64,000 nt of DNA from a virus. Under the pieces are notes generated by a model, which saw only the letters and a list, made by a program, of their open reading frames with translations, was not told the origin of the DNA and did no database searches. The stretch lies in the IMG/VR virus record IMGVR_UViG_3300028908_000006, positions 26,339-90,338 of that record. One strand, written 5' to 3'. This document shows positions 20,488 through 63,043 of this stretch, one piece after another. Position 1 is the first letter of the stretch. Each line of letters starts with the position of its first letter. The position numbers and the translations under genes are program-made.

Positions 20488-20564
20488 TGGAGCCGGTGGA
20501 GGGACTCGAACCCTCAACCTATGGATTACAAATCCATTGCTCTACCAAATTGAGCTACACCGGC
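20488..20564 (-). tRNA. tRNA-Thr(TGT)
   Basis: Full cloverleaf GCCGGTG...ATGGA TTTGTAA TCCAT...GTTCGAGTC...CACCGGC TCCA. Confidence 0.96.
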
Positions 20565-56795: not shown

Positions 56796-58175
56796 TTAAG
56801 GGAGCGCTTTTAAACTCGCTGGTATAGTGCATTTTCTCATGAAGTCCCGTAGTTTGTCAAGATCTTCCTTGTAAATTCTGTAAACAGGATTCACGAAGCG
56901 GGAAGCAGAGACAAGATCAGTCTTCATGATGTGGGCAAGCCTGCAACAGGTCTTAATGTCTGCCCCAGTCCAGAATTCATCATTGGGTCTTGCCTTGGTT
57001 TCTACTTCATAGTAGCGGCCCCAGATCTCCCAGATAATTTCCTTCTCTTCTTCTGTTGGAAAGTCAAGCCCAAAGACTGCGTCCCATCTTTCTGATCTCA
57101 CGAACTCAGGTGGGATCTTTGAAACGTCATTACAGGTGGCGATTACATAGATTCCTTCTGGTCTTTCTTCAAGCCAGCGTAAGAAATAGGAGAAAACACG
57201 AGACCCAGTCCCACCATCAGAAAGATGAGAAGATCTGATTCCACCCATCCCTTTTTCTATCTCATCCACTATGAGCACACATGGTGTAAGCACTTCTATG
57301 AGCTGGAGCGCCCTTCTCATTCTTTCTTCAGACTGGCCCACAAGAGAACCAAATACGGCTCCAAAGTCAAAGATGACAGTTGGAAGGGAAAGAAAATTTC
57401 CTGTCGCTTTCCCAATAGCTGTTTTTCCAGTTCCAGGGATCCCAACGAGAAAGATACCTTTAGCGTCTGGATGATGGGCAGTCTCCTTGATGAATTCCTT
57501 GAGATTGTAAAGCCCACCAAGATATTCAAAACTGTCTTGTTCTGCTGGATGGTAGAGAGTAAGAACTTCTGTCTCCCTTATCCTTTCAAGCTTTAACTTT
57601 TCTACGAACTCACCTATTTCTTTCCCTGTCTTTTTACTATAAAGGATAGCCCTTCCAAAGTCGGTTATGGTTATCCCGGCAGGAACGTCGCCATTTAGGC
57701 TTACCCCGACACTATCAGCAAAAACCTTTATGTCTTCCCTGGCCGGATAACCAAAATCAACCACAAGGAAACTTCCTTTGAGTGTGGATGGGATGTCAAG
57801 GGTGTCGCTTATGAAGATGACAGACTCTCCTTCGTTCAGAAAACGGCTCTCGGAAATAAAGACCATGTCTATGGTATCAGGGCTCTTCAGGAAATGGTGG
57901 GCATTCAGGAAGATGATGTTCTTGATGGAAGTTGTGTCCAGGAACCACTTGAAGGCTCGCGGGAAGTCAAGGATTTTTTGCTTTACATCATATATATTCG
58001 TTGGATCAACGATCCCTTTAGATTTTGTCCACAATAGGACTTCTCGATCTTGTGAACGAAACTCTTGAGCAATTCTTTTAATAAGATACTGAGAATCAGG
58101 CGAAACGGCATAGGCGTAGGAATAAACATTTCCCAGGCCTTCAAAGAGGGTGTTGAGCTTATCGTGGTAGGACAT
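56796..58175 (-). CDS. AAA+ ATPase (Ycf46-like)
   Basis: GIPGTGKT, IVDEIEK, ATCND, PPEFVRSERWD. Confidence 0.9.
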   Translation of the reverse strand: MSYHDKLNTLFEGLGNVYSYAYAVSPDSQYLIKRIAQEFRSQDREVLLWTKSKGIVDPTNIYDVKQKILDFPRAFKWFLDTTSIKNIIFLNAHHFLKSPDTIDMVFISESRFLNEGESVIFISDTLDIPSTLKGSFLVVDFGYPAREDIKVFADSVGVSLNGDVPAGITITDFGRAILYSKKTGKEIGEFVEKLKLERIRETEVLTLYHPAEQDSFEYLGGLYNLKEFIKETAHHPDAKGIFLVGIPGTGKTAIGKATGNFLSLPTVIFDFGAVFGSLVGQSEERMRRALQLIEVLTPCVLIVDEIEKGMGGIRSSHLSDGGTGSRVFSYFLRWLEERPEGIYVIATCNDVSKIPPEFVRSERWDAVFGLDFPTEEEKEIIWEIWGRYYEVETKARPNDEFWTGADIKTCCRLAHIMKTDLVSASRFVNPVYRIYKEDLDKLRDFMRKCTIPASLKALP

Positions 58176-58243
58176 GAGGTCATTTTATCTCTGGTCCTTC
58201 TGCTTGTCAAGCTCATGAGTTAGGGACTGTACCATTTCTTTTT

Positions 58244-58594
58244 TTAAGATTTACTTTTTACATCCTTCAAATTCTTTTGTACCTTTTTCCGACGAAGTTT
58301 TTCAATATCAACAACTATAACTTCATCACACTCTTCAAGTATCTTTTTGATTTTATCCTCAGATCCCCACCAGCATTCACATCCATATATCTTTTTCCCA
58401 TTATCCAGAAGGATACATGGATTTTCCCTCTTGACTTTCTTCAGAGAAACCCCAAAAAATTTCACACTATCCGTTTCTGGTACCTGACATCCAAGATATG
58501 TACCAAAACCGAAAATTTTGGCTATTCGTTTTCCGTCTTTTTCTTCTATATAATTGATAGCTCCTACTCGATCCCCAATTTTGAGTATTTCCAC
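58244..58594 (-). CDS. hypothetical phage protein
   Basis: GGAGGT RBS; NPCILLDNGKKIYGCECWW. Confidence 0.75.
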   Translation of the reverse strand: MEILKIGDRVGAINYIEEKDGKRIAKIFGFGTYLGCQVPETDSVKFFGVSLKKVKRENPCILLDNGKKIYGCECWWGSEDKIKKILEECDEVIVVDIEKLRRKKVQKNLKDVKSKS

Positions 58595-58648
58595 AACTGC
58601 ACCTCCTTTCTGCTGAGTTCTATACCCATGTTATAGAAGGAAAAATAC

Positions 58649-59593
58649 CTAAAGTTCATGTCCAATACATTCATACCCATTCAAGTCTGTTATCCAAATA
58701 CGGTCTGCATATTTTGCGAGGTTACTCTTTTTTATAATTTTAGCAACATCTCCCCACTTCAATTCACCGGCACCACAACCTGGTTTAGGAAGTACAATCC
58801 GATTCCATTTATATTCCTTTATAAGTTCCGCCAACCCATTAGCAGATTTTAAAATGGTATCCAGGTCAGCTTTAAGGAGATAGCCAGGCACAAGATCTCC
58901 TGGTAGGAAACGGTTTCTAGCATGAGATACCAACTCACAGGGATATTGATCTTCTGCACGTTTTACCGGGAACGATACAATAGCAGTTTCTTGAACTTTC
59001 CCAAGTATCCCAGGGCAATTGCCGTTATGTATTAGATGCTTACCAAGCCTATATTCTATATCTGGTAACCATACTTTAGCTTGGTAAGCCACTCCACGGC
59101 CCATCACACCGCGTGGTTTTCTAGTTTTCTTATCCCGGACCACAAAACCATTTGTAGTCACACAAATAGCATCAGATTTCCCTAACATAAACCAAATAGA
59201 AAAGTATTCTGTTCTGATAATCTTCATTCGAACTAGCTTATTGAATTTGTGAGCAGTAATTATTGTATGAGCTGTCCCTCGTGAAACACCATCCCAGAGG
59301 GCAATAATCAGATCAGAGGCCTCAACCATTTTGTGGTTGCGGATCAATCCTGCTCTCTTACCATACCGATACCAATCTGGTAGAAACCTTTTAATAGGAA
59401 TACCTTTATTACTTGCCCACTTTTCTGCAAGACGATCAACGCCACTAGCACCGCCAGAAATGATCGTTACCCGAGTGAGATCCAAATCTGCCGTAAGGTG
59501 GTTAAGATAGTGAAATACACTATCCTGGTCAGTAATAGAACGACTACCACAAATACAAACTCTCATAACTTTAACGATCTCCCATTCAGACAC
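58649..59593 (-). CDS. YspA-type SLOG domain fused to DarG/Poa1-like macrodomain
   Basis: CGSR, ISGGASGVD, RNHKMV, WDGVSRGT; then VTTNG, VMGRGVA, SFPVK, LPKPGCGAGELKW. Confidence 0.85.
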   Translation of the reverse strand: MSEWEIVKVMRVCICGSRSITDQDSVFHYLNHLTADLDLTRVTIISGGASGVDRLAEKWASNKGIPIKRFLPDWYRYGKRAGLIRNHKMVEASDLIIALWDGVSRGTAHTIITAHKFNKLVRMKIIRTEYFSIWFMLGKSDAICVTTNGFVVRDKKTRKPRGVMGRGVAYQAKVWLPDIEYRLGKHLIHNGNCPGILGKVQETAIVSFPVKRAEDQYPCELVSHARNRFLPGDLVPGYLLKADLDTILKSANGLAELIKEYKWNRIVLPKPGCGAGELKWGDVAKIIKKSNLAKYADRIWITDLNGYECIGHEL

Positions 59594-59644
59594 CCCATTC
59601 GGGCTTTGATGTGGATTATGATGCCCTCTGGGAGTATATCACCA

Positions 59645-61225
59645 TTACTTTAAATATTTTTCCTTGATTCTTTCTACTAGTCTTCGAATGTCTCCATCCC
59701 AAAGCTCAAGATAGCTGAACAGTCCTGGAGTCAGTTCAGAGATTCTTAGAACCTGTGGATGTTTGATTACTACACCACCTTTCGTCCCCATGTAGGCAAC
59801 ATTGCAGATTGCTACCTTCTGCTTTGCCTTGTTTGGTAGATATTCAAGTTCCCATGTTCTATTCTCTCGATCATCCCTGGTGATTTCATCTGAAATAATG
59901 ATATACAAATCAGCATCTGGAATATGACGGGTAAAATCTTTATATGCGTCAACAAGAGCCGTCCCGTTATGTGGTGTTCCATGAAATCTCTCATGCAAGA
60001 ATTGACTTAGCATGAACACGCTTTCCGTTCTAGCAATCATGTCCTTGATTTCCTCAAGATCAATTGTAGGCCAATGCTTACCATACAAACCTGGAGGCTC
60101 TATTTTACTCAAATACAGTTTACTGGTAAACGCACCGAGTTCAACAACAGTATACAACCCACCTATTACAGCCAGAAACTCAACCGCTCTTGTGATCCCA
60201 TATCCGTCCATTGATCCTGAAACATCAAGAAGAACAGCAGCTTTCTTTTCCTTCGTGCCTAACCTGTTTGCCCAGTAACTCACATAGCAATCCACCATCT
60301 CTTTTACTACATCCTGTAGGGCACCAAACTTTTTCCAGGAGTCGGATCTTGGAAGCGCCAGAAGATCAAATGGATTGACGACAGCAAGCGCTCGCGAATC
60401 TTCCTTTTTAAGAGCCTCAAGAACGCTTTTGAACCTTTCACGAATTTTAAGCTTCACCTCAAAATCAGAATCCGCAAATTGAGAAAGGTTCCTTACAAGA
60501 GCATTGAACGGTATTTTGTCGATCTGGTCTTCAAGTATCTCTTTCTTCTCCTTATCGGAAAGCTCGGTTGAAGAAAGAGTGGCCGTTATATGCTCATCCT
60601 TCTTTAAAGAAGCATACGGATCATTTTCTATAATGGTTTTGTAAAGCCTTGATCTCTCTTCAGAGGTAGGTCTCGGGCGAAATACTTTTATCAGGTCGGC
60701 CAGCTTTATCTTTCGCCTTCGCATTCGGTTCTTCTTAAGGGTGTATTCGTCATAAGATTCAAGAACGGCCTTAAAAAGGCCTTTATATGGAATAGACGCG
60801 AAAGATTTCACCCCAGCAAGCTGCTTGTAAACAGCTACCGCTTCAGCCATCCGTTTAGGGGTATCTATTATTCTGGCTGAAATGAAATTTGGAAGGTGTT
60901 TCCAGTCAGATTTCTTAGCAAGAAGAAATCCAATGACAGCCATAGGAGAAAGTTTGCGCCCGTGTTCAAAGCGAAGGTAAGGAACCAGCGCTTCCAAGAA
61001 CTCCGGATCTTGTTTGTAAACCTCTTCAAGAGTTTCCAGGAAGCTCTGAAATCGCTCTTCATCCGTATAATAGAAGGTTCTGCGTGGTCTAAGGTTGAGG
61101 CTCATTCCAGAAAGGATTGCGGCTCGAAATACATCATCTTTCCAGACAACAGCACCTTCAGGGTTTACTACCATGTCCTTTGGAAGAGAATTCTTGGAAA
61201 GGCTGGCTTTGGGATTGAGCTCCAT
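59645..61225 (-). CDS. Ro60/Rsr-like TROVE + vWA protein
   Basis: TFYY..DPEF..Y.R, DEYTLKK..KLADLIK..P, ALVRNL, MIDAS LDVSGSM, IISDE. Confidence 0.85.
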   Translation of the reverse strand: MELNPKASLSKNSLPKDMVVNPEGAVVWKDDVFRAAILSGMSLNLRPRRTFYYTDEERFQSFLETLEEVYKQDPEFLEALVPYLRFEHGRKLSPMAVIGFLLAKKSDWKHLPNFISARIIDTPKRMAEAVAVYKQLAGVKSFASIPYKGLFKAVLESYDEYTLKKNRMRRRKIKLADLIKVFRPRPTSEERSRLYKTIIENDPYASLKKDEHITATLSSTELSDKEKKEILEDQIDKIPFNALVRNLSQFADSDFEVKLKIRERFKSVLEALKKEDSRALAVVNPFDLLALPRSDSWKKFGALQDVVKEMVDCYVSYWANRLGTKEKKAAVLLDVSGSMDGYGITRAVEFLAVIGGLYTVVELGAFTSKLYLSKIEPPGLYGKHWPTIDLEEIKDMIARTESVFMLSQFLHERFHGTPHNGTALVDAYKDFTRHIPDADLYIIISDEITRDDRENRTWELEYLPNKAKQKVAICNVAYMGTKGGVVIKHPQVLRISELTPGLFSYLELWDGDIRRLVERIKEKYLK

Positions 61226-61244
61226 GACGTGACCTCCTTAAAAA

Positions 61245-61316
61245 GAAAATCGGCTGGGATTTTACGGTCCCGCAAACCGTTGCACTTTAGTGCAAGCCTA
61301 TGTAATCCCCGCCTGC
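61245..61316 (-). ncRNA. Y-RNA-like module 3 (anticodon-like loop GCG)
   Basis: GGCGGGGATT..AATCCCAGCC stem enclosing GCAC-TAAA-GTGC and ACGGT-TTGCGGG-ACCGT. Confidence 0.75.
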
Positions 61317-61342
61317 TTATAGCCTCTTGTCTCCTTTGAGAA

Positions 61343-61415
61343 GAAATCGGCGAGGACATCTAGACGGCCTTAAAAGGCTATCACCCCAATGGTGTCCTAT
61401 GTAGTCCTCGCCTGC
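61343..61415 (-). ncRNA. Y-RNA-like module 2 (CTTTTAA, Lys-like loop)
   Basis: GGCGAGGAC..GTCCTCGCC stem enclosing CACC-ATTGG-GGTG and GCC-TTTTAA-GGC. Confidence 0.72.
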
Positions 61416-61427
61416 CATAAACAGATC

Positions 61428-61498
61428 GAAATCGGTGGGGATTCTACGGTTTACAAAACCGTTGCACTTTAGTGCAAGCCTATGTAGTCCCCACCTAC
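61428..61498 (-). ncRNA. Y-RNA-like module 1 (anticodon-like loop TGT)
   Basis: GGTGGGGA..TCCCCACC stem enclosing GCAC-TAAA-GTGC and ACGGT-TTTGTAA-ACCGT. Confidence 0.78.
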
Positions 61499-61508
61499 AT
61501 TGTTGTTC

Positions 61509-61537
61509 TTTATATCACGTCACGTAGAAGGTGTCAA
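61509..61537 (-). promoter_or_regulatory. strong sigma70 promoter for RNA array and Ro60 operon
   Basis: TTGACA-17 nt-TATAAA with extended -10 TGn; predicted start near 61502. Confidence 0.85.
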
Positions 61538-61808
61538 GAGCTTTTTTGAAATTTTCCCATTGCGTAAGCTCTCGTTTCCGTTTTTCCACTACATCCTTCA
61601 TTCCTTCTTCCATAGCCGTTTCAATCCGAATTTTCAAATCATCAATAATTTTTTGGAGTGTTTCTTGAACTTTACTACTTAAAGCAATCTTTTCAACAAT
61701 TTGGTAGCAGAAAAACAAAGCTATCTCCTCTTCATAGGTAGAGAACAAACTATCAGGGATAGAAATTTCCACTTTTACATTCTTATCTGTTGACCTAAGC
61801 CACAACAT
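61515..61808 (-). CDS. hypothetical protein
   Basis: GGAGG RBS. Confidence 0.7.
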   Translation of the reverse strand: MLWLRSTDKNVKVEISIPDSLFSTYEEEIALFFCYQIVEKIALSSKVQETLQKIIDDLKIRIETAMEEGMKDVVEKRKRELTQWENFKKALDTFYVT

Positions 61809-61823
61809 ATTACCCTCCAGTAG

Positions 61824-62351
61824 CTACAACCTTTTCACTAGTTCCTTTATCAGCAATCTTACAAAATAAGGACTTCTACCATCTGCCAGCACTTTTTGGT
61901 ATAGCACTTCAAGATAGAGCCCAAGCCTATCCATTCGTTCGAGTGCAATTGCTTGTTTAAATTGACTCTCAATATCTGTTGGAACGATTAATTTTTCAAG
62001 CCCTTTTTCTGAAACTTCCTTACGGATCTCGTATTCTCTCATGATAGCGTTATACCGATCAAACGGCAAGACGCCAACCAGTTTCTCCCTTGGGTCTATC
62101 CCACAGGAACGAAAGGCTTCTTCAAGGAGCTCTGCCACTTCCTTTTTCTCTTCGATAATCTTTGTAGGCATACAAATATAATTTGGTGTTGTTCCTTTTG
62201 TGAAAGCCCCGCACCAACAGATTTTCTTTACATTATAGCTCTCCGCTCCACAGGTAAAACATTTATAGATCTTTCCACTTGGTGACATTTCAGATGTTAT
62301 CATAATTCGTGATCCACATTTTCTACATAGATGATCTACCGGTTCCCACAT
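61824..62351 (-). CDS. Zn-ribbon protein
   Basis: CRKCG, CFTCG, CWCG. Confidence 0.7.
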   Translation of the reverse strand: MWEPVDHLCRKCGSRIMITSEMSPSGKIYKCFTCGAESYNVKKICWCGAFTKGTTPNYICMPTKIIEEKKEVAELLEEAFRSCGIDPREKLVGVLPFDRYNAIMREYEIRKEVSEKGLEKLIVPTDIESQFKQAIALERMDRLGLYLEVLYQKVLADGRSPYFVRLLIKELVKRL

Positions 62352-62470
62352 AGTTCACTCCCATGTTTTAAATTTTACTTTGTTTAGAAACCCTATCGTT
62401 TATTTTGTTGATAATTTCCTTTGCAGCCGCAAGACAAAGATTTTCGCCATTTATTCTGTAAACGATCTTT

Positions 62471-63043
62471 TTATCTTGCCACATAGGTCATTTTATTATT
62501 GATCTTCTTTAGGACAGAATTAAAGGTAATATCATCGTCTGCGAATCTCTTTTTTATATAATTATTATAGAAATCACTTTCCAATTTATTTTTTATTTCA
62601 ATAGTTTTAGAGCCAAATTTAAGCTTGAATATATCAATCTTTTTTATGGAAAAATCACTATCATCTATGAAATACGGCCTCATTACTATATTATTGTCCT
62701 TAAACTTATCAAGATTGGTTTTTAATATATTATGGATCTTAATAACATAGTTCCTATGTTTATGTAACACCATAACAAAAATATAATCCCTATGAACACA
62801 AATTGCTGGAATCAAAAATACATCTTTTAAAGGTATTTTGTTTTCACAAAGAAGACAGTTATCTCCTCTACAAACGGTATTCTTACCGACCAATTCTTTA
62901 GTAACATGATACTTTAAATAATATAGATATGACGGATCGTTTATTTGTGTTGAAAAGAAAATTATTGGTCTAAAAATCATAAGCAAACAAACCATACTCC
63001 AAGAATCTGATTCTAACTGTAACAACCATATATCACCTACCAC
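62471..63043 (-). CDS. AT-rich hypothetical protein, possible gp32-like SSB Zn motif
   Basis: YH..VCRGDNCLLCE. Confidence 0.45.
   Translation of the reverse strand: MVGDIWLLQLESDSWSMVCLLMIFRPIIFFSTQINDPSYLYYLKYHVTKELVGKNTVCRGDNCLLCENKIPLKDVFLIPAICVHRDYIFVMVLHKHRNYVIKIHNILKTNLDKFKDNNIVMRPYFIDDSDFSIKKIDIFKLKFGSKTIEIKNKLESDFYNNYIKKRFADDDITFNSVLKKINNKMTYVAR

What the first reader, a model, noticed from the sequence alone, without database searches (positions are those of the whole stretch)
61444..61475. Module 1 matches the phage's own tRNA-Thr(UGU) with only compensatory changes
Seen: tRNA-Thr (20488-20564) reads GAGC-A-ATGGA-TTTGTAA-TCCAT-AG and module 1 reads GTGC-A-ACGGT-TTTGTAA-ACCGT-AG. 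That is 19 of 24 identical with an identical loop. Four differences are paired stem swaps, and the fifth is compensated in the D-stem (GCTC to GCAC). Inference: the module derives from, or is selected to mimic, tRNA-Thr. The phage would then carry both a replacement tRNA and a mimic for the same anticodon, pointing to host attack on tRNA-Thr(UGU).
Basis: partly seen in the sequence, partly recalled or inferred. Interest (0 to 1): 0.8.

Follow-up and report, generated by a model that had tools for sequence, protein, structure and literature searches.

The report
Threonine tRNA arm on phage Y-RNA
A small RNA unit encoded just ahead of a phage's Ro60 gene carries an exact copy of the lower half (D stem plus anticodon arm) of a bacterial threonine tRNA, a form of tRNA mimicry not described for the known partner RNAs of Ro60.

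Summary
Observation confirmed. The minus strand of 61444-61475 reads as stated. It is 19/24 identical to the phage tRNA-Thr(UGU), and every change preserves pairing. Structure-preserving shuffles reach 19/24 in 11 of 200,000.

A stronger fact emerged. The 17-nt hairpin is the anticodon arm of genuine bacterial tRNA-Thr(UGU) genes: 119 of 123 exact matches, with four tRNAs identical at all 24 positions. The model is therefore a bacterial-type tRNA, not the phage's own.

The module is one of three tandem units. They share a stem + YUACAUA...CCGAUUU "handle" in the leader of a gene that folds as Ro60. The same handle precedes distant phage Ro60 genes: 28 sense, 1 antisense, shuffles 0.72.

Best reading: a Y-RNA-like partner RNA that displays a tRNA-Thr anticodon limb as bait.

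"Host attack on tRNA-Thr" is untested:
- ACA is simply the phage's commonest Thr codon.
- Modules 2 and 3 match no tRNA.
- No expression data were found.

This scan noted similar anticodon-arm cargos beside Ro60-like genes on other phage DNA (unchecked by me).

Verdict: new variant of a known kind.

The parts
61509..61537 (-). Promoter-like site: TTGACA (61537-61532), 17-nt spacer, TATAAA (61514-61509), preceded by TGA. The TGA is also the stop codon of the upstream ORF. The start would fall a few bases before module 1.
   Evidence: Read. The consensus scan did not list it, because its rule needs T at the last -10 position. Function not shown.
61434..61495 (-). Module 1 (62 nt). Closing stem GGUGGGGA/UCCCCACC (61488-61495 with 61434-61441) encloses the handle and the tRNA-like cargo.
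   Evidence: The stem covaries with modules 2 and 3 (U-A to C-G, G-C to A-U).
61476..61487 (-). Handle linker CUACAUAGGCUU. YUACAUAGG is shared by all three modules. U[UA]CAUA is shared with modules upstream of distant phage Ro60 genes.
61464..61475 (-). D-stem-like hairpin GCAC-UAAA-GUGC: a 4-bp stem with a 4-nt loop in place of a D loop.
   Evidence: The same GCAC/GUGC D stem occurs in four bacterial tRNA-Thr(UGU) genes.
61463..61463 (-). Single A in the place of tRNA position 26.
   Evidence: A at this place in 111 of 115 natural tRNA-Thr hits.
61446..61462 (-). Anticodon-arm copy ACGGU-UUUGUAA-ACCGU: 5 bp, 7-nt loop, U33, anticodon UGU, A37, A38.
   Evidence: 119 of 123 exact matches in bacterial genomes are tRNA-Thr(UGU) anticodon arms.
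61442..61445 (-). AGAA joining strand. AG matches tRNA positions 44-45. Alternatively GUAG (61444-61447) pairs with CUAC (61484-61487) of the handle.
   Evidence: The alternative pairing has about 0.7 probability in the thermodynamic model and covaries with module 3 (UUAC/GUAA).
61428..61433 (-). Conserved 3' tail GAUUUC. CCGAUUU follows the closing stem in all three modules.
61349..61412 (-). Module 2: same closing stem type and handle, but different hairpins (CACC-AUUGG-GGUG and GCC-UUUUAA-GGC). No anticodon-arm geometry.
61252..61313 (-). Module 3: near-copy of module 1 with the same D-like stem, A and 5-bp stem, but loop UUGCGGG. One G.A mismatch in the closing stem.
   Evidence: 5 of the 10 differences from module 1 lie in the 7 loop positions (P = 7e-4; counted by eye).
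59645..61225 (-). Ro60 (TROVE + vWA) gene, 526 aa, with RBS AAGGAGG just after module 3.
   Evidence: AlphaFold2 model pLDDT 85. The 12 best Foldseek PDB matches listed, down to E 3.6e-08, are all Ro60 proteins. DxSxS metal-site residues are invariant in 17 homologues.
20488..20564 (-).

Best explanation
Module 1 is one of three tandem Y-RNA-like units in the 5' leader of a phage Ro60 gene.

Each unit has a 'handle': an 8-bp closing stem, YUACAUA after its 5' strand and CCGAUUU after its 3' strand. This handle most likely docks the RNA on the phage Ro60 ring. Each unit also has a variable cargo.

In module 1 the cargo is a faithful copy of one whole limb of a bacterial-type tRNA-Thr(UGU): D stem, A26, anticodon stem and loop, and A44-G45. 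The D loop is trimmed to four bases and there is no T arm.

I think the particle displays this limb as bait for a protein that reads or cuts the tRNA-Thr anticodon arm. It would either sequester that protein or tether it to Ro60 and its partners.

Shown: the sequence identity, the shared handle and its link to Ro60 genes, and the Ro60 fold of the neighbour.
Inferred: transcription and processing, Ro60 binding, and the nature of the protein that is baited.
For: tRNA likeness:
- 19/24 to the phage tRNA-Thr with only pair-preserving changes.
- 11 of 200,000 structure-preserving shuffles do as well.
- The 17-mer is a natural tRNA-Thr(UGU) anticodon arm in 119 of 123 exact genome matches, with 24/24 identity to four tRNAs and 23/24 to 64.
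- ARAGORN in its permissive mitochondrial mode makes a single default call in the 361-nt region: Thr(UGU), on this strand.

Y-RNA-like setting:
- The downstream gene matches phage phiLo Ro60 by sequence (E 1.7e-8) and by fold. The 12 best Foldseek matches listed, down to E 3.6e-08, are all Ro60.
- phiLo Ro60 binds two Y-like RNAs encoded upstream of its gene (PMC12135203, sections 8 and 17 read).
- Bacterial Y RNAs lie near Ro60 on the same strand and mimic tRNA (PMC4201824, section 4 part 1 read).

Handle:
- A strict stem + U[UA]CAU[AU] ... GAU[UC][UC] search finds 28 units on the Ro60-sense strand against 1 antisense, in 22 loci (104 kb). 50 shuffles give a mean of 0.72.
- Some relatives carry T-arm + D-arm cargos on the same handle. 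One has a sub-threshold YrlA match: 25.1 bits, E 0.17.

Cargo as the specificity part:
- Modules 1 and 3 differ at 5 of 7 loop positions but only 5 of 55 others (P = 7e-4).
Against: - No transcript, processing or binding datum.
- The canonical Ro60-binding motifs (GGUCCGA, GNCGAAN0-1G, CGAA in a bulge) are absent from the modules. No Rfam family matches.
- The thermodynamic model slightly prefers a fold in which CUAC of the handle pairs with GUAG and opens the two lowest pairs of the anticodon stem: -27.7 against -24.2 kcal/mol, with pair probabilities 0.23-0.32 against about 0.7. That pairing covaries with module 3.
- UGUA of the loop could also pair with UACA of the handle as a pseudoknot, which I did not evaluate.
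- Module 3's loop (G37, G38, anticodon GCG) matches none of 271 tRNAs. Module 2 has no anticodon-arm shape.
- Of 26 modules in relatives, none has an anticodon-arm cargo. Within the loci I could fetch the design is therefore seen only here.
Confidence: 0.6

Rival explanations
1. A host anticodon nuclease attacks tRNA-Thr(UGU). The phage answers with a spare tRNA-Thr(UGU) gene and with module 1 as a decoy substrate or inhibitor.
For: - Module 1 and one of only three phage tRNAs share the anticodon.
- The mimic is an authentic anticodon arm.
- Phage tRNAs are known to neutralise tRNA-cutting defences: abstract of PMC11464382 and the abstract of PMC11555353 in the search listing.
- The phage tRNA differs from the mimic in two stem pairs. 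If the host tRNA is of the module-1 type, that could matter to a nuclease that reads the stem.
- Unchecked notes of this scan report Thr(UGU) and Lys(UUU) arms on Ro60-partner RNAs of other phages.
Against: - The anticodon loops of mimic and phage tRNA are identical, so a loop-reading nuclease would cut both.
- ACA and CCA are the phage's commonest Thr and Pro codons, an ordinary reason for these tRNA genes.
- The chance that a tRNA-arm cargo shares its anticodon with one of three phage tRNAs is about 3/40 (my estimate).
- No RNA repair genes.
- I found no tRNA-Thr-specific defence nuclease in print: listing, and 0 occurrences of tRNA-Thr or threonine in PMC11464382.
- Host unknown.
Confidence: 0.2
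2. tRNA-derived relic. The unit arose from a tRNA-Thr gene, as Y RNAs are thought to have done. It keeps the D/anticodon limb only as a stable folded body, and the anticodon identity has no role.
For: - Chen et al. suggest that YrlA and Yrn1 originated from tRNAs, and that the tRNA fold may simply protect the RNA from nucleases (PMC4201824 section 10).
- Ro60 genes of relatives sit among tRNA genes: 24 tRNA matches in 20 loci.
- Module 3 keeps the stems but not the loop, as expected if loop sequence is free.
Against: - All 17 hairpin positions and 7 flanking ones are still identical to living tRNAs.
- The D loop and T arm were removed cleanly, which looks like selection on this limb rather than decay.
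- Differences between modules 1 and 3 are concentrated in the loop (P = 7e-4). That also fits a swapped specificity element.
Confidence: 0.2
3. Cis-acting leader element. The anticodon-arm mimic in the Ro60 mRNA leader binds threonyl-tRNA synthetase or another tRNA-binding factor to regulate Ro60 expression, in the manner of the E. coli thrS operator (recalled, not checked here).
For: The three units lie between a promoter-like site and the Ro60 RBS, with no terminator-like site between them.
Against: - Module 1 is the unit farthest from the RBS, about 200 nt upstream.
- The same handle units occur in arrays, up to about 1 kb from the gene in relatives.
- phiLo Yrl RNAs act as separate RNAs in vitro.
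Confidence: 0.05
4. Chance resemblance of an ordinary hairpin.
For: - The 17-mer is a near-perfect palindrome and also occurs as a non-tRNA repeat (4 of 123 matches).
- 6 of 200 genome shuffles give a 19/24 site somewhere.
Against: - (11 of 200,000; 24/24 to natural tRNAs, including the D stem on both strands, A26 and A44-G45).
- The location inside a tRNA-mimicking RNA class.
Confidence: 0.02

Closest known systems
YrlA-type bacterial and mycobacteriophage Y RNAs with Rsr/Ro60 (Rfam RF02553; Chen et al. 2014, PMC4201824; Wang et al. 2018, bioRxiv 10.1101/312249)
   Same: - Encoded next to a Ro60 orthologue on the same strand.
- A stem formed by the two ends plus a tRNA-mimicking module.
- A YUAY motif after the 5' stem strand (YUAC here).
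- Relatives of this locus carry T-arm + D-arm cargos with a weak YrlA match.
   Different: - YrlA mimics the acceptor/T/D part and 'lacks the anticodon loop' (passage of 10.1101/312249). Module 1 mimics the opposite limb (D stem + anticodon arm) and has no T arm.
- No GNCGAAN0-1G motif.
- 62 nt instead of about 100 or more.
- Three units in tandem.
- No Rfam match.
Thermus phage phiLo Ro60 with Yrl1/Yrl2 (Hu et al. 2025, PMC12135203; PDB 9KOP, 9L5Y)
   Same: - The best solved relative of the neighbouring protein by sequence and fold.
- Partner RNAs encoded upstream of the phage Ro60 gene.
- A phage of a hot habitat.
   Different: - Yrl1/Yrl2 were picked by a CGAA motif in a bulge and are not described as tRNA mimics (sections 8 and 17 read).
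- The window's modules have no such motif and carry a tRNA limb.
Deinococcus radiodurans Yrn1
   Same: It can be drawn with an 'anticodon arm' of 5 bp (PMC4201824).
   Different: That loop has 6 nt, and no identity to a real tRNA anticodon arm is reported. Module 1 is identical to natural tRNA-Thr(UGU) arms.
Phage tRNAs that defeat tRNA-cutting defences (T5 tRNA-Lys against PARIS, PMC11464382; phage tRNAs against retron effectors, PMC11555353)
   Same: Phage-encoded RNA aimed at the host-phage contest over one tRNA species.
   Different: Those are whole, functional tRNAs. Module 1 cannot be charged (no acceptor end or T arm) and is tied to a Ro60 handle. No nuclease for tRNA-Thr is known to me.
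thrS operator of E. coli (anticodon-arm mimic of tRNA-Thr that binds ThrRS; recalled, not checked here)
   Same: A copy of the tRNA-Thr anticodon arm in an mRNA leader.
   Different: The operator abuts the thrS RBS. Module 1 is about 200 nt from the RBS of an unrelated gene and is built on a Y-RNA-like handle.
Handle-tagged tRNA-mimic RNAs beside phage Ro60-like genes, noted earlier in this scan on other DNA (e1-5983402, e1-5976570, e1-5699884, e1-5653576 and others; AI notes)
   Same: Anticodon arms, repeatedly Thr(UGU), displayed on a conserved handle upstream of a Ro60-shaped protein gene.
   Different: Those notes name other handles (for example a helix plus ACAGCAA or CAGCWA). I could not see their sequences, so kinship of the handles is untested.

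Membership tests
Y RNA in the broad sense (partner RNA of Ro60) | Encoded close to a Ro60 orthologue, on the same strand | tested here: met
   The modules end 24 nt before the ATG of a protein with Ro60 sequence and fold. The same arrangement holds in 11 of 22 related loci under a strict search.
Y RNA in the broad sense (partner RNA of Ro60) | Stem formed by the 5' and 3' ends | tested here: met
   An 8-bp stem with two compensatory changes among modules 1-3. 7-9 bp stems of different sequence in 26 further modules.
Y RNA in the broad sense (partner RNA of Ro60) | Known Ro60-binding motif (GGUCCGA; GNCGAAN0-1G; CGAA in a bulge) | tested here: not met
   Absent from the three modules on the sense strand. 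YUACAUA and CCGAUUU are conserved instead.
Y RNA in the broad sense (partner RNA of Ro60) | Expressed as a small RNA and bound by Ro60 | not testable with these tools
YrlA (Rfam RF02553) | Match to the covariance model at the gathering score | tested here: not met
   No match at gathering or at E up to 10 in 61100-61650. A relative's T+D module reaches 25.1 of 69 bits.
YrlA (Rfam RF02553) | T arm with T loop and D arm with D loop; no anticodon loop | tested here: not met
   No GUUCRANYC in modules 1-3. The D loop is replaced by UAAA. An anticodon loop is present.
tRNA (RF00005) | Cloverleaf with acceptor stem, T arm and 3' end | tested here: not met
   Not called by ARAGORN in bacterial mode or by Rfam. 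Only the permissive mitochondrial mode calls it, with an implausible acceptor and T arm.
tRNA (RF00005) | Anticodon arm: 5 bp, 7-nt loop, U33, purine 37, joined to a 4-bp D stem by one base | tested here: met
   Identical to natural tRNA-Thr(UGU) genes.
Decoy for an anticodon nuclease | A nuclease of the host that cuts the mimicked tRNA and is inhibited by the mimic | not testable with these tools
   Host unknown. No such nuclease for tRNA-Thr found.
thrS-operator type leader | Anticodon-arm mimic next to the RBS of the regulated gene | tested here: not met
   Module 1 is the distal unit. Module 3, next to the RBS, has a non-tRNA loop.

The most novel reading that the evidence does not exclude
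Phage Ro60 particles are display stands for interchangeable pieces of tRNA. In this phage the stand shows the complete anticodon limb of the host's tRNA-Thr(UGU), to trap or redirect a host protein that reads or cuts that anticodon (a defence nuclease, the t6A37 machinery or ThrRS). That would make Ro60/Y-RNA particles a general phage counter-measure in the contest over tRNAs.
Probability: 0.2. Interest if true: 0.85.

Novelty: new variant of a known kind. Interest (0 to 1): 0.62.

Why it matters
What the tRNA-like part of bacterial Y RNAs is for has been open since 2014 (PMC4201824, section 10).

Here a Ro60-linked RNA carries an exact, nameable anticodon arm rather than the elbow of a generic tRNA. 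That turns the question into a direct experiment: pull down what binds a tRNA-Thr(UGU) limb mounted on a Ro60 handle.

It also extends tRNA mimicry by Y RNAs to the half of the tRNA that YrlA lacks. And it links phage Ro60 genes to the current work on tRNA-targeting defences.

My two paper searches on the topic found no description of an anticodon-arm cargo on a Y RNA.

Tried and rejected
Closer relatives
The contigs of the 49-64% identical Ro60 homologues P0001-P0007 could not be read. This is the main gap.
- The search for related loci in viral contigs gave nothing with the single protein or with P0005. It gave the same three about 30% relatives with two alignments.
- The metagenome scan gave 22 loci at 28-38%.
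- blastn of 59000-63000 against GenBank phages: no match.
After a stem filter, 0 convincing modules remained and 1 weak one (L141).

RNA families
- No match for the modules.

Expression
- No RNA holder listed. No reads were laid.

Promoter
- The scan tool lists nothing at 61509-61537. The site is my own reading.

Strand from G.U pairs
- Equivocal. Both internal A.C and G.U mismatches occur. Strand rests on the gene orientation, the T/D-arm cargos of relatives and the tRNA order of module 1.

Modules 2 and 3 as mimics of other tRNAs
- The module 3 loop is absent from 271 tRNAs.
- Local alignment of the inserts to 168 unselected tRNAs is no better than shuffles.
- Module 2 has CUUUUAA, the loop of two tRNA-Lys(UUU) in my set, at a hairpin tip. 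But the stem has only 3 bp, and 259 of 2000 shuffles hold some natural loop heptamer.

RNA repair partners
- No RtcB, RNA ligase or CCA-adding enzyme. PF09511 rang in no control genome, so says nothing.

Host
The host was not identified.

PARIS paper
- No mention of tRNA-Thr.
Full report
THE OBSERVATION

On the minus strand, window 61444-61475 reads GCAC-UAAA-GUGC-A-ACGGU-UUUGUAA-ACCGU-AG. ARAGORN and Rfam find three tRNA genes in the window, and in the whole 90,338-base genome: Thr(UGU) at 20488-20564 (minus), Met(CAU) and Pro(UGG).

Positions 22-45 of the tRNA-Thr read GAGC-A-AUGGA-UUUGUAA-UCCAU-AG. The two 24-mers agree at 19 positions and the loop is identical. The five differences are two base-pair swaps in the 5-bp stem and one change in the 4-bp stem. 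That last change is matched on the other strand (GCUC to GCAC).

IS IT MORE THAN CHANCE?

Yes, by three tests.

- Whole-genome scan. A scan of the genome on both strands with the tRNA-Thr 24-mer finds module 1 as the only non-self site at 19/24 or better. 6 of 200 dinucleotide shuffles of the genome give such a site somewhere. Taken alone this is a modest P of about 0.03.
I permuted and flipped base pairs within each stem and permuted the unpaired letters. This reaches 19/24 against the best of the three phage tRNAs in 11 of 200,000 trials. Module 1 also scores 15/24 and 14/24 against tRNA-Met and tRNA-Pro, where the null median is 8-9. It therefore has general tRNA features as well.
- Natural tRNAs. 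I scanned the exact 17-nt hairpin in one genome for each of 185,579 prokaryotic species.
  - 115 matches are the anticodon arm of ARAGORN-called tRNA-Thr(UGU) genes.
  - Of the other 8, four are tRNA-Thr genes cut by the locus end or missed, and four are non-tRNA palindromes.
  - Among the 115, the seven flanking positions read GAGC-A...AG in 64 (23/24 to module 1) and GUGC-A...AG in 4 (24/24).
  - Those four, from uncultured Gammaproteobacteria, also have GCAC as the other D-stem strand.
  - 17 of the 24 positions are identical by construction of the scan. Only the flanks are free evidence.

The hairpin is thus a natural tRNA-Thr(UGU) anticodon arm found in many phyla. Module 1 is closer to such bacterial tRNAs than to the phage's own tRNA.

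WHAT THE THING IS

The finding lies in a 289-nt spacer (61226-61514) between two minus-strand genes. The spacer holds three similar units. Each unit has:
- an 8-bp closing stem, with compensatory changes between units;
- YUACAUAGG after the 5' strand;
- two hairpins;
- CCGAUUU after the 3' strand.

The downstream gene (59645-61225) encodes a 526-aa protein.
- It has weak Pfam TROVE and vWA matches.
- It matches phrog_850 'RNA-binding protein'.
- By sequence it matches the Ro60 of Thermus phage phiLo at E 1.7e-8 (PDB 9L5Y/9KOP).
- An AlphaFold2 model has mean pLDDT 85. Its 12 best Foldseek matches listed for the PDB, down to E 3.6e-08, are all Ro60 proteins: phiLo, Xenopus, human and Deinococcus Rsr. 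TM-scores are 0.48-0.66.
- The DxSxS metal-site residues are invariant in 17 homologues.

Y RNAs are the partner RNAs of Ro60. In bacteria and phages they lie near the Ro60 gene on the same strand and mimic tRNA (PMC4201824, section 4 part 1). phiLo Ro60 binds two Y-like RNAs encoded upstream of its gene (PMC12135203, sections 8 and 17).

THE HANDLE IS A FAMILY TRAIT

Relatives of the protein at about 30% identity were fetched from viral and metagenome contigs. Their upstream regions carry units of the same frame with quite different stems and cargos.

A strict search asked for a 7-bp stem with at most one G.U, then U[UA]CAU[AU] within 2 nt after it, then the complementary strand followed by GAU[UC][UC].
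- It finds 28 units on the Ro60-sense strand and 1 on the other strand, in 22 loci (104,482 bases).
- 50 dinucleotide shuffles give a mean of 0.72 and at most 6.

Ten of the 26 units from other loci carry a T-loop. Some carry a T arm plus D arm, as in YrlA. One of these has a sub-threshold Rfam YrlA match: 25.1 bits against a cut-off of 69, E 0.17.

The window's modules match no Rfam family. They also lack the known Ro60-binding motifs. I therefore call them Y-RNA-like, not YrlA.

THE CARGO OF MODULE 1

A 4-bp stem, one A, then a 5-bp stem with a 7-nt loop is the geometry of the D stem, position 26 and the anticodon arm. In a folded tRNA these stack into one limb of the L (textbook knowledge).

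Module 1 keeps that limb letter for letter. It replaces the D loop by UAAA and has no T arm. YrlA is the reverse: it keeps the acceptor, T and D parts and 'lacks the anticodon loop' (passage of bioRxiv 10.1101/312249). Deinococcus Yrn1 can be drawn with a 5-bp 'anticodon arm', but its loop has 6 nt.

- Of 29 modules examined, only modules 1 and 3 of the window have a hairpin with 5 bp, a 7-nt loop, U33 and a purine at 37.
- Module 3 is a near-copy of module 1. By my count on the alignment, 10 of 62 positions differ. Five of those fall in the 7 loop positions (hypergeometric P = 7e-4).
- Module 3's loop UUGCGGG occurs in none of 271 tRNAs collected from the session's loci. In that set G38 occurs in 2 tRNAs and G37 in 14.
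- The module 2 and 3 inserts align to 168 unselected tRNAs no better than shuffles do.

So one unit is a true tRNA-Thr arm, one has the same arm with a foreign loop, and one is different.

CAVEATS ON THE FOLD

RNAfold prefers a fold of module 1 in which CUAC of the handle pairs with GUAG. This extends the closing stem past an AA bulge and opens the two lowest pairs of the anticodon stem.
- Energies are -27.7 against -24.2 kcal/mol.
- Pair probabilities are 0.23 and 0.32 for the two lowest pairs, against about 0.7 for the extension.
- The extension covaries with module 3 (UUAC/GUAA).
- UGUA of the loop is also complementary to UACA of the handle. I did not evaluate that possible pseudoknot.

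Only probing can settle this.

HOW IT MOST LIKELY WORKS

A promoter-like site (TTGACA, 17 nt, TATAAA with TGn; 61537-61509, my reading) would start transcription a few bases before module 1. The scan tool does not list it. The three units would be part of, or cut from, the Ro60 leader.

By analogy with Y RNAs, I infer that the handle binds the Ro60 ring and the cargo engages another factor. For module 1 that factor should be something that recognises the tRNA-Thr(UGU) anticodon limb. Candidates are a tRNA-cutting defence nuclease, the t6A37 enzymes or ThrRS (from my own knowledge). The particle would sequester it or couple it to Ro60 and, as in Deinococcus and phiLo, to PNPase.

None of these steps is shown.

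The pairing of mimic and 'replacement tRNA' is suggestive but weak.
- The loops are identical, so the phage tRNA is not a loop escape variant.
- ACA (34%) and CCA (41%) are the commonest Thr and Pro codons in a crude set of 110 ORFs. That is the ordinary explanation for these tRNA genes.
- The genome holds no RtcB, RNA ligase or CCA-adding enzyme.
- I found no tRNA-Thr-specific nuclease in print.

EARLIER NOTES OF THIS SCAN

Notes on other genomes describe conserved handles beside phage Ro60-like genes that display anticodon arms, repeatedly Thr(UGU) and Lys(UUU). One of those phages has no tRNA genes at all.

I could not see those sequences and did not test them. They are leads, not evidence. 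If they hold, they would argue that the Thr(UGU) cargo is a recurrent, selected design, and that it does not depend on a matching phage tRNA gene.

VERDICT

- The reading as tRNA-Thr mimicry or derivation is supported, with the correction that the model is a bacterial-type tRNA.
- The decoy-against-host-attack story remains a hypothesis.
- It is a new variant of the Ro60/Y-RNA kind.

Noticed in passing
window 61252-61313 (-): Module 3 has the same D-like stem, A and 5-bp stem as module 1, but its loop is UUGCGGG. Half of all differences between the two units fall in the 7 loop positions (P = 7e-4). The loop matches none of 271 tRNAs.
   Followed up: partly
window 61349-61412 (-): The tip of module 2's second hairpin holds CUUUUAA, the loop of two tRNA-Lys(UUU) in my tRNA set. 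The stem has only 3 bp, and 13% of shuffled inserts hold some natural loop heptamer.
   Followed up: partly
window 61484-61487 with 61444-61447 (-); module 3 61302-61305 with 61262-61265: CUAC/GUAG (module 1) and UUAC/GUAA (module 3) can extend the closing stem past an AA bulge. The pairing covaries and competes with the base of the anticodon-like stem.
   Followed up: partly
window 61509-61537 (-): Near-consensus promoter-like site (TTGACA-17-TATAAA). Its TGn element is the TGA stop codon of the upstream 97-aa ORF (61515-61808).
   Followed up: no
window 56796-59593 (-): The Ro60 gene is followed in the same direction by a YspA-type SLOG domain fused to a phosphatase/macro-like part (58649-59593; Pfam PF10686, phrog_289, phrog_335). 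Next comes a 116-aa ORF and then an AAA ATPase (56796-58175). This may be one operon.
   Followed up: no
L008, L009, L013, L016, L024 (upstream of the Ro60-like genes): Tandem units with the same handle but a second flank type (CUCAUAMA before the stem, GAUUUYGGAG after it). Their cargos are a T arm plus D arm or a lone T-loop hairpin. Rfam does not call them at gathering score.
   Followed up: partly
L005, L012, L014, L015, L019, L021, L023: Ro60-like genes of related phages sit beside tRNA gene clusters: 24 tRNA matches in 20 loci. In the window the tRNA genes lie 28-41 kb away.
   Followed up: no
L252 6013-6029 (+) and 6151-6167 (-); L151; L154: The same 17-mer occurs outside tRNA genes as part of longer repeated palindromes, twice within 150 nt in a Nibrella viscosa contig. 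This may be a repeated operator or REP-like element.
   Followed up: no
whole genome (G000): 90,338 bases with a 127-base direct terminal repeat, 42% G+C and only three tRNA genes.
   Followed up: no
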